DNA of 64,000 bases from Escherichia coli (GTDB lineage Bacteria; Pseudomonadota; Gammaproteobacteria; Enterobacterales; Enterobacteriaceae), in assembly GCF_003018255.1 (NCBI RefSeq), contig NZ_CP027440.1, one strand, 5' to 3'. A program made the position numbers and the translations under genes. Below, piece by piece: positions 53,211-57,209 of this stretch (position 1 is its first letter; the number at the start of each line of letters is the position of its first letter). The notes beneath the pieces are model-generated. The model had not been told where the DNA came from. It worked only from the letters and a program-made list of their open reading frames with translations, and did not search any database.

Positions 53211-55157
53211 ATGAATTTTGAAGAGCTTATAAATGATATTGAAAGACTCTTAATTGGTAAAGAGTTGCAGTCTATAAATCCTAACACCCCCCCATTATTC
53301 CTTTTAAAAATAGACAGGGATATTGGTAAATATTACGTGTCTGTTTCTTTAAATGCTAAGCCTACGGCAAGGTCAATTTCTGAATTTGAATATATATTTA
53401 ATGACTTACTGCGTAAAGGGTTTTGTAATGTAGATCAGTCATTATATGGTAGCTCTTCAAGCCGTAATCACCCGGAAACAATATTTGCAAACTTGCCTTA
53501 TATTCAATTCTTTAAGTTCAAGAAAAAGAAACATATATTATTACGTAATAAAAATGTACACGAAGCAGGTCAACTTTCTGAATTACAAGGGGCTGAGTCT
53601 CGTGCTATAAGGAAGCAAATAGAAAATTATTTATCTCTAAATTTAAGTGAAATTGCAGAGCAGCAGTTAAAATCGTTGGAAAAAATGTTCGATGCGTATG
53701 ATGCTATTTTAAAAAAATACCCAGGGGATATCCCTGTTATAATGGCTGAGCAAGGCTTGTTGGGATTAAAAAACATTAGCGAAGTACTGATTAATTCTTA
53801 TGTTTCCTTGGATTTTGACAGTAGTGGCGATAAAATAAATAAATTAAGTAAATTTAAACAGGTGGAGTTATTTAAAGAAGATTTATCTTTAGAGGATTTA
53901 ATTGAGTCCCCTGAGATAAGTGGAGTTGATTCAGGTGATAAGAATATTGAGGAACAATCGGAATCAGAATTAGCACCTGAGCAAAAACGTACGGGCATTG
54001 CAAAAATGCTTATGACTACACCAGTTTTAACACTAATTTTTGATCGTGTAAGATATGATGAAATTGAGTTACAACCTGACTTTCAGAGAAAAGACCGAAT
54101 TTGGCCTGACGACAAAAAGTCAAAACTTATTGAATCAATATTAATGAAGCTTCCATTACCGGGGTTTTACTTTGGTGAAAAGCCAAACGGTAACTGGGTA
54201 GTTATTGATGGCCTTCAAAGAACGACTACAATTTGTGATTATATGAGTGGTCATTTCTCATTGAAAGGGCTCTCTATTTTAGAGCACTTAAATGGAAAGA
54301 GTTTTAAAGATCTTACTCGAACCGAGCAACGAGACATTAGAGAGTATCAAATTACGGCTTACCAAATAGAACTAAATGATGATAGTTCTGAATTGGTTGT
54401 AGAACTATTCCATAGAATAAACACTTATGGTGTAAAGTTAAGTAGTCAAGAAATAAGATCTGCACTTAATAAAGGCAATAGCGTAACCTTTTTACGTTAT
54501 TTAGCTTCATTAGAAACGTTCAAAAAAGCGACGCAATTTAAAGTAAAGCCGGACAGGCAAAAAGATATGGAGCTCTGTTTGTCCGCTCTTGCTTTTATGG
54601 TACTTGGTTATAATAACTATGGCCAACATTCGTATGATCATTTTTTATGTAGTGCAATGCAGAAGCTAAATAATTATCCATTAAGCATCATTAATAAAGA
54701 AGAGATTGATGCTGGAACAGCTCTTATTTCTCCTTCAAGTGAAGTCTTTTTAACTTTATATTCAAAATATAATCAGGCTTTAATCTTAGCAAATGAAGTT
54801 TTTGGTGAAATAGCTTTTTCAAAAGATCCGGAAAATAAAAAATCACCTATTAATAAACAACTCTTTGAGTTAATTGTTACTGTTTTCTCTGTATTTGACT
54901 CACATCAAAAGGAGATGATGTTAGCTAATGGTGATAAATTTATTGATAGCTTATACTTGGCTATTGAGGAGAATAGTAGTCGATATGCTAAGTGGGAGTC
55001 TGATACATATGAAAAGGACGATAGAGGATTTAGAGACTCAATATCTACTTCGACAGGTAAAAGAATATCTGTTGTATATCGATTTGATGCTTTTTTAAAT
55101 ATCCTTGGAAAAAGCACAGGAATAACTATTGATAGTAAATTATTACAGGGGGAGTGA
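53211..55157 (+). CDS. DUF262 (ParB-like NTPase/nuclease, GmrS-like) domain protein with extra N- and C-terminal regions
   Basis: PDFQRKDRIWPDDKKSKLIESILMKLPLPGFYFGEKPNGNWVVIDGLQRTTTI matches the DUF262 core including DGxQR; AT-rich; 648 aa. Confidence 0.7.
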   Translation: MNFEELINDIERLLIGKELQSINPNTPPLFLLKIDRDIGKYYVSVSLNAKPTARSISEFEYIFNDLLRKGFCNVDQSLYGSSSSRNHPETIFANLPYIQFFKFKKKKHILLRNKNVHEAGQLSELQGAESRAIRKQIENYLSLNLSEIAEQQLKSLEKMFDAYDAILKKYPGDIPVIMAEQGLLGLKNISEVLINSYVSLDFDSSGDKINKLSKFKQVELFKEDLSLEDLIESPEISGVDSGDKNIEEQSESELAPEQKRTGIAKMLMTTPVLTLIFDRVRYDEIELQPDFQRKDRIWPDDKKSKLIESILMKLPLPGFYFGEKPNGNWVVIDGLQRTTTICDYMSGHFSLKGLSILEHLNGKSFKDLTRTEQRDIREYQITAYQIELNDDSSELVVELFHRINTYGVKLSSQEIRSALNKGNSVTFLRYLASLETFKKATQFKVKPDRQKDMELCLSALAFMVLGYNNYGQHSYDHFLCSAMQKLNNYPLSIINKEEIDAGTALISPSSEVFLTLYSKYNQALILANEVFGEIAFSKDPENKKSPINKQLFELIVTVFSVFDSHQKEMMLANGDKFIDSLYLAIEENSSRYAKWESDTYEKDDRGFRDSISTSTGKRISVVYRFDAFLNILGKSTGITIDSKLLQGE

Positions 55158-56305
55158 TGAAAAAAATTACGTCTTTAACATTAAAAAATTTCAAAGCTTA
55201 TAAAGAACAGAGTTTTGATTTTAGTAATTTAACTGTATTTTGCGGTAATAATTCTGTTGGTAAAAGTACGGCTATTCAAGCTATCGGTATGTTTCTCCAA
55301 TCAGATATGAATGGTAACAGTAATCTAAAAATAAATGGCGATTTAGTTCATGTCGGAGACTTCGACGATATTCATAATTTCAGTATGCGTGAGGATGATG
55401 TTTTATATTTAAAATATACATTTGAAGACGATACGGCTTGCTGGGGATATGGTATAGAAGAAGGGGATGCTAGAGAAGAACTTTCTAGGAAAAATGAATT
55501 ACCTTTTATTGGGTGTGATAAACAATTAAGAACTATAACAAACTCACTTAAAGATAACTTTTCATTCCAATATTTGGAAGCGGAGAGATTTGGTCCAAGA
55601 GATAATATTCCATTATCACAGCACAATTATCATGAAGGTTGGCTTGGGAAAAATGGGGAACATACAATTGAAGTTCTTGAGAGTTTGGTCACAAGGAGGC
55701 GTTTAAATTTTTCTGCTCAAGAGGATCCTAGGAAACATGAAGGAATTATTAATAATAATGTTTTCAATCATATTGAAGCATGGATGTCTGAGATTTCACC
55801 AGGGCATCGTATCTCACCTAGAATTGAGGCTAGGGCGAATGTTGCATTTAATGTCATAATCCCTTCACCTGGACAATTAACGAAACCTATTAACATAGGA
55901 TTTGGATTTAGTTATGCTCTTAGTATTGTCACTGCTTTAATGCTGGCATCAAAAAATGAACTCGTTATTATTGAAAATCCTGAGGCTCATCTACATCCAA
56001 GAGGTCAAAGCTATTTAGGACGACTTATTGCTTTATCAGCAAAAGCAGGGATCCAGGTTATTATTGAGACTCATAGTGATCATCTTCTTAATGGCATAAG
56101 AGTAATTGCACGCACAGATCCAACTTTTGATGCTTCTCTTTTTACTCTTTACTATATTTCACGAGAAAATGATGAAACATCTGTCGCCAAAATAAAAATA
56201 AATAATGAAGGGAAACTTTCCGAATGGCCTAGAGGGTTCTTTGATCAACAATCACAGGATATGTATACGATAATGACAGGCTCTTTTGATCATCCCAATA
56301 TTTAA
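55154..56305 (+). CDS. ABC/SMC-type ATPase (AAA_15/AAA_21-like)
   Basis: Walker A GNNSVGKST; Walker B ELVIIENPEAHLHP; H-loop THSDHLL; ATGA overlap with the upstream gene. Confidence 0.8.
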   Translation: MMKKITSLTLKNFKAYKEQSFDFSNLTVFCGNNSVGKSTAIQAIGMFLQSDMNGNSNLKINGDLVHVGDFDDIHNFSMREDDVLYLKYTFEDDTACWGYGIEEGDAREELSRKNELPFIGCDKQLRTITNSLKDNFSFQYLEAERFGPRDNIPLSQHNYHEGWLGKNGEHTIEVLESLVTRRRLNFSAQEDPRKHEGIINNNVFNHIEAWMSEISPGHRISPRIEARANVAFNVIIPSPGQLTKPINIGFGFSYALSIVTALMLASKNELVIIENPEAHLHPRGQSYLGRLIALSAKAGIQVIIETHSDHLLNGIRVIARTDPTFDASLFTLYYISRENDETSVAKIKINNEGKLSEWPRGFFDQQSQDMYTIMTGSFDHPNI

Positions 56306-56324
56306 TATTGTAGGGACATATAAA

Positions 56325-57209
56325 ATGAAAGCTGGCGTGTTTCTTATTCCTGAATGTTTTGATTTCAATACGGATATTTTATCTTTAAGTTCGGACCTTG
56401 ATCTGGCTTCGAAACTCGTAGTAAATACCCGTTCAGAATTTATTCACTTTATGAAATCTAGGGAGTTTGACTCGAAGATTGCGGAGTTATTGTTTTCCAC
56501 ATCACCTGATTATGCTGGAATGATGTCAAGATTTTACGATCAGCATCTATCAAAAGTTATAAAAATGGATATTAATGACGATGATATTATTGATATTATA
56601 AATAGCGAAGAACCTAAGTATTCTAACCGTTTGTTATCAATTTTTAATACGGGAAAAAAAGATTTAAATATTAAATATGTTAATAGATTAATTGACTCAG
56701 AAATTAAGATGAATGATTATTGTACTGATATCTTATTGAATTACCCAAGAAATGACGAGCAATACTGTGAGGATATACAGCAGGTTTATAAAAATTTAAT
56801 TTTCCTAGATTATCCAGAGGCAAAAGAATTTAAGACATTTAATAGTCTCAAGAGAATGACCGGTGGTTATGATAATTTCTTGAAGGCTATAACCAATTTT
56901 TTAAGTTATATGAATAAATTCGAATTCAAAACGAAAGATATGATGGATACATTGAAAATGATGGAGAGTGATTTAGGATCTCCAGTAACTCCGGAAGGAG
57001 GGGGGAAGAAAAGCCGATCTTTGAAAAGAGATTTTTTAATTAATGGAAAGCTATATACAAATGTAAACTGCGAATTCCATTTGAAATTAGAAAATGTTGA
57101 TGATACTAAGGGAAACAGAAAACACCATAAGAATAGAATTTATTTTGGATTTATTATGATAAGTGATAAAAACAGAGTGGCAATAGCTCATATTGGGGAA
57201 CACATTTGA
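56325..57209 (+). CDS. Hypothetical protein, third gene of candidate defence operon (possible nuclease effector)
   Basis: Start MKAGVFLIPECFDFNTDIL contains a Toprim-like acidic pattern, but this is weak; AT-rich. Confidence 0.45.
   Translation: MKAGVFLIPECFDFNTDILSLSSDLDLASKLVVNTRSEFIHFMKSREFDSKIAELLFSTSPDYAGMMSRFYDQHLSKVIKMDINDDDIIDIINSEEPKYSNRLLSIFNTGKKDLNIKYVNRLIDSEIKMNDYCTDILLNYPRNDEQYCEDIQQVYKNLIFLDYPEAKEFKTFNSLKRMTGGYDNFLKAITNFLSYMNKFEFKTKDMMDTLKMMESDLGSPVTPEGGGKKSRSLKRDFLINGKLYTNVNCEFHLKLENVDDTKGNRKHHKNRIYFGFIMISDKNRVAIAHIGEHI

What the first reader, a model, noticed from the sequence alone, without database searches (positions are those of the whole stretch)
53211..57209. AT-rich three-gene operon (DUF262 protein, ABC-type ATPase, unknown third gene): candidate undescribed anti-phage defence system
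Three tightly coupled genes (4-bp and 19-bp junctions) with much lower GC than the ICE core sit next to a restriction-modification system. Gene 1 carries a DUF262/ParB-like core (DGLQRTTT), the module found in GmrSD-type restriction and SspE. Gene 2 is an ABC/SMC-like ATPase of the kind used in Septu, PARIS and OLD/Gabija. Gene 3 has no recognisable family and only a weak Toprim-like acidic N-terminal pattern. I do not recognise this gene order as any named system, and its placement in a defence-island-like block suggests an immunity function.
Basis: partly seen in the sequence, partly recalled or inferred. Interest (0 to 1): 0.85.

Follow-up and report, generated by a model that had tools for sequence, protein, structure and literature searches.

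The report
Menshen anti-phage operon, already named
The three genes are real and almost certainly a phage-defence operon, but they are a textbook copy of the already named Menshen system (NsnA-NsnB-NsnC), so the locus is ordinary except for a hint that the neighbouring DNA methylase is its self-protection partner.

Summary
Three co-directional ORFs (53211-55157, 55157-56305, 56325-57209) have 31-34% GC against about 59% in the ICE backbone, with 1/4-bp overlap and 19-bp junctions, beside an R-M system.

The claim of an undescribed system does not hold. PADLOC profiles match all three proteins nearly end to end: NsnA 1.7e-113, NsnB 1.3e-104, NsnC 1.7e-83. This is Menshen (Millman 2022, analysed by Li et al. 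2025, PMC12065111).

- **Subtype:** it is the "Type II" form, because NsnA carries an extra ~260-aa N-terminal region.
- **Gene 3:** it is not Toprim-like. The model shows an inactive PIN-like N-domain plus a RelE/YafQ-like (BECR) RNase domain with invariant H252, R271 and H289, as in the reference NsnC.
- **Distribution:** identical proteins are in RefSeq for E. coli, Salmonella, Enterobacter and Klebsiella.

There is one added lead. The NsnA N-domain is homologous to the N-terminal region of the adjacent NmeDI-like restriction enzyme (hhalign 97%, E 1e-10). Orthologues of the adjacent C5 methylase (54-56% identity) flank homologous Menshen operons in five other genera. This suggests methylation-gated sensing, an idea Li et al. 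raised as an open question.

Interest is low to moderate; the system is already known.

The parts
53211..55157 (+). nsnA (648 aa; = WP_001561323.1). Layout: N-terminal reader-like alpha/beta domain (res 1-~115); three-helix region (127-196); acidic low-confidence linker (~200-267); ParB-like DUF262 (287-418; QRKDRIW, DGLQR 333-337, FHRIN 400-404); C-terminal 'ParBDB' region to ~636.
   Evidence: PADLOC NsnA 1.7e-113, residues 261-636 = profile 41-383/385. Pfam GmrSD_N 4.4e-24. Motifs. AF2 model of residues 1-275: pLDDT ~90 for 1-75 and 90-140.
53211..53585 (+). NsnA-N domain (res 1-125), the extra 'Type II Menshen' sensor module. It is homologous to the N-terminal region of the adjacent NmeDI-like REase and to N-termini of McrB/LlaJI-like and ~238-aa proteins.
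   Evidence: hhalign profile-profile 97.0%, E 9.6e-11, NsnA 2-124 vs REase 3-147; controls <=0.6%. hmmsearch of 1.84e9 representatives: 195 hits, of which 170 at E<=1e-10. Fusions seen. No Pfam or PDB sequence match.
55157..56305 (+). nsnB (382 aa from ATG 55157; alternative GTG 55154): ABC/OLD-type ATPase with DUF3696 tail. Walker A GNNSVGKS (30-37); Walker B LVIIEN (EN instead of DE); GFG in place of the SGG signature.
   Evidence: PADLOC NsnB 1.3e-104, full length. Pfam AAA_21/AAA_15/AAA_23 plus DUF3696 3.4e-10. Motifs match the NsnB peculiarities described in PMC12065111.
56325..57209 (+). nsnC (294 aa; = WP_073569094.1): N-terminal PIN-like Rossmannoid domain without conserved PIN acidic residues (~1-160), plus a C-terminal RelE/YafQ-like BECR RNase domain (~183-294) with invariant E250, H252, K254, R271, H289 and H293.
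57220..57248 (.). 12-bp-stem hairpin between the convergent nsnC and REase genes; likely bidirectional terminator.
   Evidence: Consensus scan; sequence. Not tested.
57271..58344 (-). NmeDI-like type II restriction endonuclease (357 aa). Its N-terminal ~147 aa are homologous to NsnA-N. The C-terminal part belongs to Pfam NmeDI_C.
   Evidence: PADLOC REase_II 4.2e-120. Precomputed PF27126 NmeDI_C on homologues, one of them named R.NmeDIP. hhalign.
58280..59419 (-). C5 DNA cytosine methyltransferase (379 aa), cognate of the REase (65-bp overlap). It is also a candidate self-protection partner of this Menshen subfamily.
   Evidence: TIGR00675 2.7e-47. PADLOC MTase_II 1.7e-161. 54-56% identical orthologues adjoin homologous Menshen operons and other NsnA-N-domain systems.
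59645..60100 (+). Vsr very-short-patch repair endonuclease, the usual companion of C5 methylases.
   Evidence: TIGR00632 2.2e-34. PADLOC Vsr 1.5e-27.

Best explanation
The operon is a Menshen anti-phage system (nsnA-nsnB-nsnC) of the 'Type II' architecture. It is carried as AT-rich cargo at the attR-proximal end of a leuX-integrated PFGI-1/SPI-7-class ICE in E. coli.

**Proposed mechanism** (the published Menshen model, adapted to this locus; each step below is inferred unless marked shown):
1. NsnA is the DNA sensor. Its ParB-like DUF262 NTPase and ParBDB domains, together with the extra N-terminal reader domain, bind invading DNA.
2. NsnB is an ABC ATPase that probably forms a tetramer and holds NsnC through its DUF3696 tails. 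It transduces the signal by ATP binding or hydrolysis.
3. NsnC is the effector. An inactive PIN-like domain docks to NsnB or RNA, and the RelE/YafQ-like BECR domain cleaves RNA. This arrests translation and aborts or blocks infection.

**Shown here:** family membership, motifs, folds, operon structure and conservation of the trio.

**Inferred from homology and from Li et al. 2025:** the sensor-transducer-effector roles, the NsnB-NsnC complex and the RNA target.

**My own added inference (moderate confidence):** NsnA-N is an NmeDI-type sequence reader. The adjacent M.NmeDI-like C5 methylase would then mark self DNA, so that this Menshen subtype responds to unmethylated (RCCGGY-like) foreign DNA.
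For: **All three proteins match Menshen profiles**
- PADLOC NsnA 1.7e-113, NsnB 1.3e-104 and NsnC 1.7e-83, each over nearly the whole profile.
- Rival families score far lower: PD-T4-2_A 1.9e-28, AriA 3.9e-30, GajA ~1e-15.

**Motifs and domains**
- NsnA has the DUF262 motifs DGLQR and FHRIN and no DUF1524.
- NsnB has the NsnB-specific variants described in PMC12065111: Walker B 'EN', GxG signature and a DUF3696 tail.

**Conservation of the trio**
- The same gene order and sizes occur in Pseudoalteromonas, Vibrio cholerae, Enterobacter, Methylotenera, Kosakonia, Klebsiella/Salmonella and Xenorhabdus.

**Function of the family**
- S. silvestris Menshen protects against T2, T4, T6 and Fado (Millman 2022, as cited in PMC12065111).

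**Methylase link**
- hhalign NsnA-N vs the REase family: 97%, E 9.6e-11, with clean controls.
- MTase orthologues at 54-56% identity sit next to Menshen in 5 further genera, in three different arrangements.
- The same reader domain follows an orthologous MTase in a LlaJI/McrB-like operon and in an MTase-HATPase-Mrr/helicase operon.
Against: - No experiment exists on this locus or on any Type II Menshen. The mechanism of Menshen as a whole is unproven: no structure is cited and NsnA-NsnB signalling is unknown.
- Motif I reads QRKDRIW, with four rather than three residues between QR and W.
- Against the methylase link: one enterobacterial clade (E. hormaechei and K. pneumoniae/Salmonella; L006, L007, L014, L015) has no C5 MTase within 6 kb.
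- NsnA-N and REase-N share only ~20% identity, so they need not read the same site.
- In Kosakonia the R-M genes are 93-95% identical to the window while NsnABC is 42-62% identical. The two modules therefore recombine independently.
Confidence: 0.93

Rival explanations
1. A genuinely new three-gene defence system that only shares generic domains (DUF262, ABC ATPase) with known systems.
For: RefSeq annotates the genes only as 'DUF262 domain-containing', 'DUF3696 domain-containing' and 'hypothetical'. NCBIfam has no model for genes 1 and 3, and Pfam has nothing for gene 3.
Against: All three proteins match Menshen-specific PADLOC profiles over their full length, at E-values 75-85 orders of magnitude better than any other family. 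The gene order and both NsnC folds match the published definition.
Confidence: 0.02
2. A GmrSD/SspE-like type IV restriction enzyme or a PARIS/Septu/Gabija-type ATPase-nuclease pair. In this reading DUF262 or the ABC ATPase works with a DNA nuclease (DUF1524 HNH, Toprim or HNH), and the target is DNA rather than RNA.
For: Pfam GmrSD_N on gene 1. PADLOC AriA, Old, GajA and PtuA-like N-terminal hits on gene 2. A 2025 preprint groups a Menshen with Toprim/OLD nuclease-NTPase systems, and some NsnC families do carry Toprim or PLD domains.
Against: There is no DUF1524, Toprim, DUF4435 or HNH domain in any of the three proteins. The NsnC C-domain matches RelE/YafQ/YoeB/HigB RNase toxins, not Toprim. 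The NsnB hits to AriA/GajA cover only the ATPase core and are far weaker than the hit to NsnB.
Confidence: 0.03
3. Menshen and the R-M/methylase genes are merely neighbours in a defence island. The methylase serves only the NmeDI-like REase, and NsnA senses something unrelated to methylation, for example modified phage DNA as in GmrSD/SspE, or a phage protein.
For: Defence systems cluster generally, and 27.9% of Menshen loci lie near BREX, R-M or methylase genes. One clade of this subfamily has no adjacent MTase. The R-M and Menshen blocks have discordant divergence in Kosakonia. The validated Menshen restricts T-even phages with modified cytosines. The same N-domain is fused to McrB-type GTPases, many of which are modification-dependent.
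Against: Orthologous MTases (54-56% identity, including the variable region) abut the Menshen operon directly, without any REase, in Vibrio, Pseudoalteromonas, Methylotenera (same strand, 21-125 bp upstream) and Xenorhabdus. The reader domain is shared with the REase that this MTase protects against. It also follows an orthologous MTase in a LlaJI-like operon.
Confidence: 0.45

Closest known systems
Menshen (NsnA-NsnB-NsnC), Type II sensu Li et al. 2025 (PMC12065111); founding example from Solibacillus silvestris StLB046 (Millman et al. 2022)
   Same: Same three genes in the same order. NsnA has DUF262 plus a ParBDB core. NsnB has the ABC ATPase with the EN Walker B, the GxG signature and the DUF3696 tail. 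NsnC has an inactive PIN-like N-domain plus a BECR (YafQ/RelE-like) C-domain with an H-R-H set of invariant residues. There are full-length PADLOC profile matches.
   Different: NsnA carries an extra ~260-aa N-terminal region that is absent from S. silvestris NsnA (a Type I system). NsnC belongs to a different PADLOC NsnC sub-model (PDLC03915; it matches PDLC03879 only weakly and only at the C-terminus). The host is a gammaproteobacterial ICE. I could not determine which of the 33 named NsnA-N families this domain is, because the paper's supplement is not held.
NmeDI restriction-modification system (R.NmeDI / M.NmeDI) of Neisseria meningitidis (PMC2095814)
   Same: The adjacent REase family carries Pfam NmeDI_C, and one homologue is named R.NmeDIP. 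As in NmeDI, the R gene overlaps the 3' end of the M gene in the same orientation. NsnA-N is homologous to the N-terminal region of this REase family.
   Different: The recognition sequence of the window's enzymes is not known. RCCGGY is extrapolated from NmeDI.
GmrSD / SspE / PD-T4-2 (other DUF262 defence proteins)
   Same: They share the ParB-like DUF262 NTPase with the DGxQR motif, followed by a helical DNA-binding domain.
   Different: There is no DUF1524 HNH nuclease here. The effector is a separate protein (NsnC) coupled through an ABC ATPase.
PARIS (AriAB), Septu (PtuAB), Gabija (GajAB), OLD
   Same: They use an ABC/OLD-type ATPase that is predicted to hold and regulate a toxin or nuclease subunit.
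   Different: The partner is not Toprim or HNH but PIN-like plus BECR. There is an additional DUF262 sensor subunit.
LlaJI-type (McrB/McrC-like) R-M systems
   Same: The NsnA-N reader domain occurs at the N-terminus of McrB-like AAA_5 GTPases, followed by RE_LlaJI and preceded by an orthologous C5 MTase. This is the same 'MTase + reader + NTPase + effector' logic.
   Different: The NTPase (AAA+ GTPase vs ParB-like plus ABC ATPase) and the effector (DNA nuclease vs predicted RNase) are different.

Membership tests
Menshen | NsnA: ParB-like DUF262 domain with motifs QRxxxW, DGxQR and FxxxN | tested here: met
   Pfam GmrSD_N 4.4e-24, residues 287-418. DGLQR 333-337 and FHRIN 400-404. Motif I is QRKDRIW, one residue longer than QRxxxW. 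PADLOC NsnA 1.7e-113.
Menshen | NsnA: DUF262 followed by the helical ParBDB domain and not by a DUF1524 nuclease | tested here: met
   The PADLOC NsnA profile aligns through position 383/385 to residue 636. No DUF1524 or other nuclease Pfam hit. The fold of this region was not modelled here.
Menshen | NsnB: ABC (AAA_15/OLD-type) ATPase with C-terminal DUF3696 helix; Walker B 'EN' and GxG signature variants | tested here: met
   PADLOC NsnB 1.3e-104, profile 2-343/345. AAA_21/AAA_15 plus DUF3696 3.4e-10. GNNSVGKS, LVIIEN, GFG. Criteria taken.
Menshen | NsnC: third gene immediately downstream, with an inactive PIN-like N-domain plus an effector (toxin/nuclease) C-domain | tested here: met
Menshen | Co-directional nsnA-nsnB-nsnC operon, conserved across lineages | tested here: met
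   Junctions of 1/4-bp overlap and 19 bp. The same order occurs in 7 other lineages.
Menshen | Protects cells against phage | not testable with these tools
   Shown only for the S. silvestris system (T2, T4, T6, Fado), as cited in PMC12065111.
Menshen Type II (Li et al. 2025) | Additional globular domain N-terminal to DUF262 in NsnA | tested here: met
   Residues 1-260 lie outside the NsnA profile. AF2 gives a confident alpha/beta domain at 1-115 plus a helical region at 127-196. This region is conserved in more than 100 homologues.
GmrSD / SspE | DUF262 fused to a DUF1524 (HNH-type) nuclease in one polypeptide | tested here: not met
   There is no DUF1524 hit in any of the three proteins.
PARIS / Septu / Gabija / OLD | ABC ATPase paired or fused with a Toprim (AriB, GajA C-terminus, OLD) or HNH (PtuB) nuclease | tested here: not met
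   No Toprim, DUF4435 or HNH in gene 3 or gene 2. The AriA, GajA and PtuA hits cover only the ATPase and are much weaker than the NsnB hit.
NmeDI-like type II R-M (neighbouring genes) | REase of the NmeDI family with its cognate C5 MTase, the R gene overlapping the 3' end of the M gene | tested here: met
   PADLOC REase_II 4.2e-120 and MTase_II 1.7e-161. PF27126 NmeDI_C is precomputed on homologues. There is a 65-bp R/M overlap. The Pfam copy available to profile_search lacks PF27126. Recognition sequence not tested.

The most novel reading that the evidence does not exclude
This Menshen subfamily may be a methylation-gated, R-M-like system with four functional parts.
- NsnA-N would be an NmeDI-type sequence reader that detects unmethylated RCCGGY-like sites on incoming DNA.
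- The M.NmeDI-like C5 methylase, which here is shared with a bona fide REase, would mark self DNA.
- The output would be an RNase (BECR) rather than DNA cleavage.

One methylase would then license two mechanistically different effectors, DNA cutting and translation shut-off. The 'MTase + reader' pair would be a portable cassette plugged into Menshen, LlaJI/McrBC-like and MORC/helicase-type machines.
Probability: 0.4. Interest if true: 0.6.

Novelty: already known. Interest (0 to 1): 0.3.

Why it matters
As a discovery claim it does not matter much. Standard defence-system finders should label this locus Menshen, since the PADLOC profiles match all three proteins. The proteins are already in RefSeq across Enterobacteriaceae.

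Its residual value is as a convenient E. coli-native, ICE-borne Type II Menshen. What NsnA senses and how self is spared are open questions, stated explicitly by Li et al. 2025. This locus makes them directly testable with classical restriction/modification genetics, for three reasons:
- The candidate reader domain has a homologue in the neighbouring NmeDI-like REase.
- That REase belongs to the family of R.NmeDI, whose specificity has been characterised.
- The candidate protective methylase is adjacent.

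Tried and rejected
**NsnA-N fold and sequence searches that gave nothing**
- Foldseek of the same model against PDB. Nothing was significant (best E 0.088). There were only low-probability winged-helix-like hits (ArsR, MecI), which I do not rely on.
- Pfam on the NsnA-N alignment and HMM searches against PDB sequences for NsnA-N and NsnC. No hits.

**NsnA-N versus the REase**
- Pairwise BLASTP gave no similarity (E 52).
- Profile versus single sequence gave only 12% probability.
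- Only the profile-profile comparison with 133 and 115 sequences was decisive. I ran controls to guard against over-reading.

**Database and literature look-ups**
- NCBIfam has no model for NsnA, NsnC or the REase.
- I looked for the RefSeq accessions in the supplement of PMC12065111 to name the NsnA-N, inPIN and effector families. The supplement is not held.
- Plasmid collection: no match.
- Pfam on the REase: the local Pfam copy lacks PF27126.

**Readings considered and dropped**
- A PD-(D/E)xK reading of the alpha-beta-beta-beta-alpha-beta start of NsnA-N (D35, K40). These residues are not conserved in the REase homologue.
- Toprim for gene 3.

**Promoter scan**
- It calls no + strand sigma-70 site upstream of nsnA, and the hit counts equal the shuffled expectation.

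Full report
**Observation**

The window holds three co-directional ORFs at 53211-55157, 55154/55157-56305 and 56286/56325-57209.
- The first junction is GTGATG. That gives a 4-bp overlap if nsnB starts at GTG, or a 1-bp overlap at the ATG that RefSeq uses.
- The second junction is a 19-bp gap before the ATG at 56325.
- GC content is 0.33, 0.34 and 0.31 for the three genes, against 0.59 for the 8 kb upstream.
- The DGLQRTTT string is at NsnA residues 333-340.
- Gene 1 has a Pfam GmrSD_N (DUF262) domain, 4.4e-24.
- Gene 2 has AAA_21, AAA_15 and AAA_23 plus DUF3696.
- Gene 3 has no Pfam or NCBIfam family.
- Immediately downstream, on the other strand, lie a type II REase (57271-58344) and a C5 methyltransferase (58280-59419), followed by vsr (59645-60100).

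**Provenance**

The 4.3-kb block is 99.9-100% identical to three complete E. coli chromosomes out of 5,426 genomes, and it has no plasmid match.
- RefSeq annotates the genes as WP_001561323.1 'DUF262 domain-containing protein', WP_001561324.1 'DUF3696 domain-containing protein' and WP_073569094.1 'hypothetical protein'.
- The genes lie inside an element with traD, pilL2 (PFGI-1 class), STY4528/STY4534-family replication genes and ParB. The element is next to nanM, nanC and fimB.
- tRNA-Leu(CAA) lies at 590-674. An imperfect copy of its 3' end lies at 60560-60588. The defence genes are therefore the last cargo before the probable attR.
- The exact NsnA and NsnC sequences occur on more than 500 contigs. 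Their 90% clusters include Salmonella, Enterobacter hormaechei and Klebsiella.

**Identity**

Against PADLOC-DB v2 the three proteins match as follows:

| Protein | PADLOC profile | E-value | Coverage |
|---|---|---|---|
| Gene 1 | NsnA | 1.7e-113 | residues 261-636 on profile 41-383/385 |
| Gene 2 | NsnB | 1.3e-104 | profile 2-343/345 |
| Gene 3 | NsnC (PDLC03915) | 1.7e-83 | profile 1-301/301 |

The next-best families are tens of orders of magnitude weaker: PD-T4-2_A at 1.9e-28, AriA at 3.9e-30 and GajA at about 1e-15.

NsnA-NsnB-NsnC is Menshen. It was discovered by Millman et al. 2022, and the S. silvestris operon protects against T2, T4, T6 and Fado (as cited in PMC12065111). It was dissected bioinformatically by Li et al. 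2025. Menshen has also been recorded in E. coli mobile islands (PMC10121019).

**Anatomy against the published definition**

- **NsnA.** It has DGLQR and FHRIN, and a motif I variant QRKDRIW. It has no DUF1524.
- **NsnB.** It has Walker A GNNSVGKS, the NsnB-typical Walker B LVIIEN ('EN' instead of 'DE'), GFG in place of the SGG signature and the DUF3696 tail.
- **NsnC.**
  - I aligned 45 homologues and predicted the structure (pLDDT 83.9, pTM 0.85).
  - The N-domain lacks a conserved acidic quartet. The C-domain has invariant E250, H252, K254, R271, H289 and H293, in line with the H-R-H triad described for PB-BECR1.
  - The 'Toprim-like' suggestion is not supported.

**Type II feature**

NsnA residues 1-260 lie outside the NsnA profile. 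The model has three parts:
- a confident alpha/beta domain at residues 1-115;
- a helical region at 127-196;
- an acidic, low-confidence linker.

More than 100 full-length homologues at 48-58% identity, from Enterobacteriaceae, Vibrio, Pseudoalteromonas, Shewanella and Methylotenera, keep this region. Li et al. call such systems Type II Menshen (23% of 1,997 loci, with 33 NsnA-N families). I could not assign the family name because the supplement is not available. PDB fold and sequence searches and Pfam were uninformative.

**What the extra domain is likely to be**

A profile of residues 1-125, searched against 1.84 billion representatives, found 195 proteins. They fall into four groups:
- ~640-aa NsnA proteins;
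- a large group of ~235-245-aa proteins;
- 480-600-aa fusions to McrB-type AAA_5 GTPases;
- an 850-aa protein.

The genomic contexts are consistent:
- A C5 MTase is followed by an HATPase_c_3 protein, an Mrr_cat-DEAD helicase and then the small reader protein (L011, L012).

The neighbouring REase of the window belongs to the NmeDI family. PF27126 NmeDI_C is precomputed on its homologues, and one homologue is named R.NmeDIP. R.NmeDI recognises RCCGGY and cuts 12/7 on both sides, and its gene overlaps the end of the M gene, as here (PMC2095814).

A profile-profile comparison of NsnA-N (133 sequences) with this REase family (115 sequences) gave probability 97.0% and E 9.6e-11 over 123 columns, aligning NsnA 2-124 with REase 3-147. 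The shared motifs are hVD..L.GSGSSRNQPETI.ANLPYI against N.DRVfG.SYNtRSvlE.LlaHTP.FY, and KKHL against HKHL. Controls against the NsnC alignment, the MTase alignment and the reversed REase alignment gave <=0.6%. The single-sequence comparisons had been negative or weak.

**The methylase**

The window's MTase is 54-56% identical over its whole length to C5 MTases in the following contexts:
- directly upstream of, and co-directional with, homologous Menshen trios in Pseudoalteromonas, V. cholerae and Methylotenera (gaps of 21-125 bp, with no REase);
- convergent with the trio in Xenorhabdus (with vsr, no REase);
- at the head of the LlaJI-like operon;
- at the head of one of the two MORC/helicase-type operons (L012; the L011 methylase is only 39% identical).

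That level of identity is as high as for NsnA itself.

Kosakonia cowanii has the same six-gene block as the window. There the REase, MTase and Vsr are 93%, 95% and 84% identical, while NsnA, NsnB and NsnC are only 58%, 62% and 42% identical.

Against an obligatory link, the E. hormaechei and K. pneumoniae/Salmonella clade shows no MTase within 6 kb.

Li et al. already noted methylases next to Menshen. They asked whether these work with it, so this is support for an existing hypothesis, not a new concept.

**Mechanism**

The most likely mechanism is the published sensor-transducer-effector model.
1. NsnA binds foreign DNA. Here it plausibly binds unmethylated sites read by the NmeDI-type N-domain.
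2. NsnA switches its ParB-like NTPase and engages the NsnB ABC-ATPase tetramer.
3. NsnB holds NsnC through its DUF3696 tails, and NsnC's BECR RNase is released or activated.

Domain identities, motifs, folds and synteny are shown here. Complex formation, the RNA target, the abortive outcome and methylation gating are inferred.

**Verdict**

Noticed in passing
window 590-674 and 60560-60588: tRNA-Leu(CAA) (leuX) lies at the left end. An imperfect direct repeat of its 3' end (GGCGAGTCCGGCCTTCG[ACCTTC]GCACCA) lies at ~60.56 kb. These are the probable attL and attR of a ~60-kb PFGI-1/SPI-7-class ICE. Menshen plus the R-M system are the last cargo before attR.
   Followed up: partly
window 57271-60100; L013 10096-12912: The REase-MTase-Vsr block is 84-95% identical (protein level) between E. 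coli and Kosakonia cowanii. The adjacent NsnABC is only 42-62% identical. This points to allele replacement or rapid diversification of Menshen next to a conserved R-M module.
   Followed up: partly
proteins P0226-P0350; L011 5001-5726, L012 5001-5717: A large family of ~238-aa proteins carries the NsnA-N/NmeDI-N-like reader domain plus an uncharacterised beta-rich C-terminal half. It forms the last gene of C5-MTase / HATPase_c_3 (840 aa) / Mrr_cat-DEAD-helicase operons. This looks like a multi-subunit ATP-dependent R-M-like system that I did not identify. In L012 it is followed by another DUF262 protein and an AAA_5 protein.
   Followed up: partly
window ~61068-61217 and 61354-62004; L003 9962-10951, L006 4675-5565, L016 8337-9248: ScoMcrA-like (sulfur-binding-domain/HNH) type IV restriction genes recur next to this Menshen subfamily in V. 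cholerae, E. hormaechei and Xenorhabdus. In the window RefSeq annotates a fragment of a 'phosphorothioated DNA-binding restriction endonuclease' pseudogene. An intact 216-aa HNH protein (weak PADLOC mREase_IV hits) lies just outside the putative attR.
   Followed up: no
window 53173-53197: A 7-bp inverted repeat ATCCATT / AATGGAT brackets a perfect TATAAT (53182-53187), 24 nt upstream of the nsnA ATG. This is a possible promoter with an operator. The consensus scan did not call a + strand promoter here because there is no good -35.
   Followed up: no
window 46886-48691 region (L001 4887-6692): RefSeq marks the ICE-borne DNA topoisomerase III gene as a pseudogene with an internal stop in the identical E. 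coli record.
   Followed up: no
window 53000-53211 vs NZ_AP045067.1: The otherwise identical E. coli record is one base longer than the window across 53000-57300 (4302 vs 4301 bases). Gene coordinates imply the indel lies in the T-rich intergenic stretch upstream of nsnA.
   Followed up: no
window 56859 and 58643: Only two RCCGGY sites (the NmeDI recognition sequence) occur in the 7.2-kb AT-rich cargo block 53000-60200. About 1.6 are expected from base composition, so there is no avoidance signal at this scale. There are 44 sites in the whole window.
   Followed up: partly
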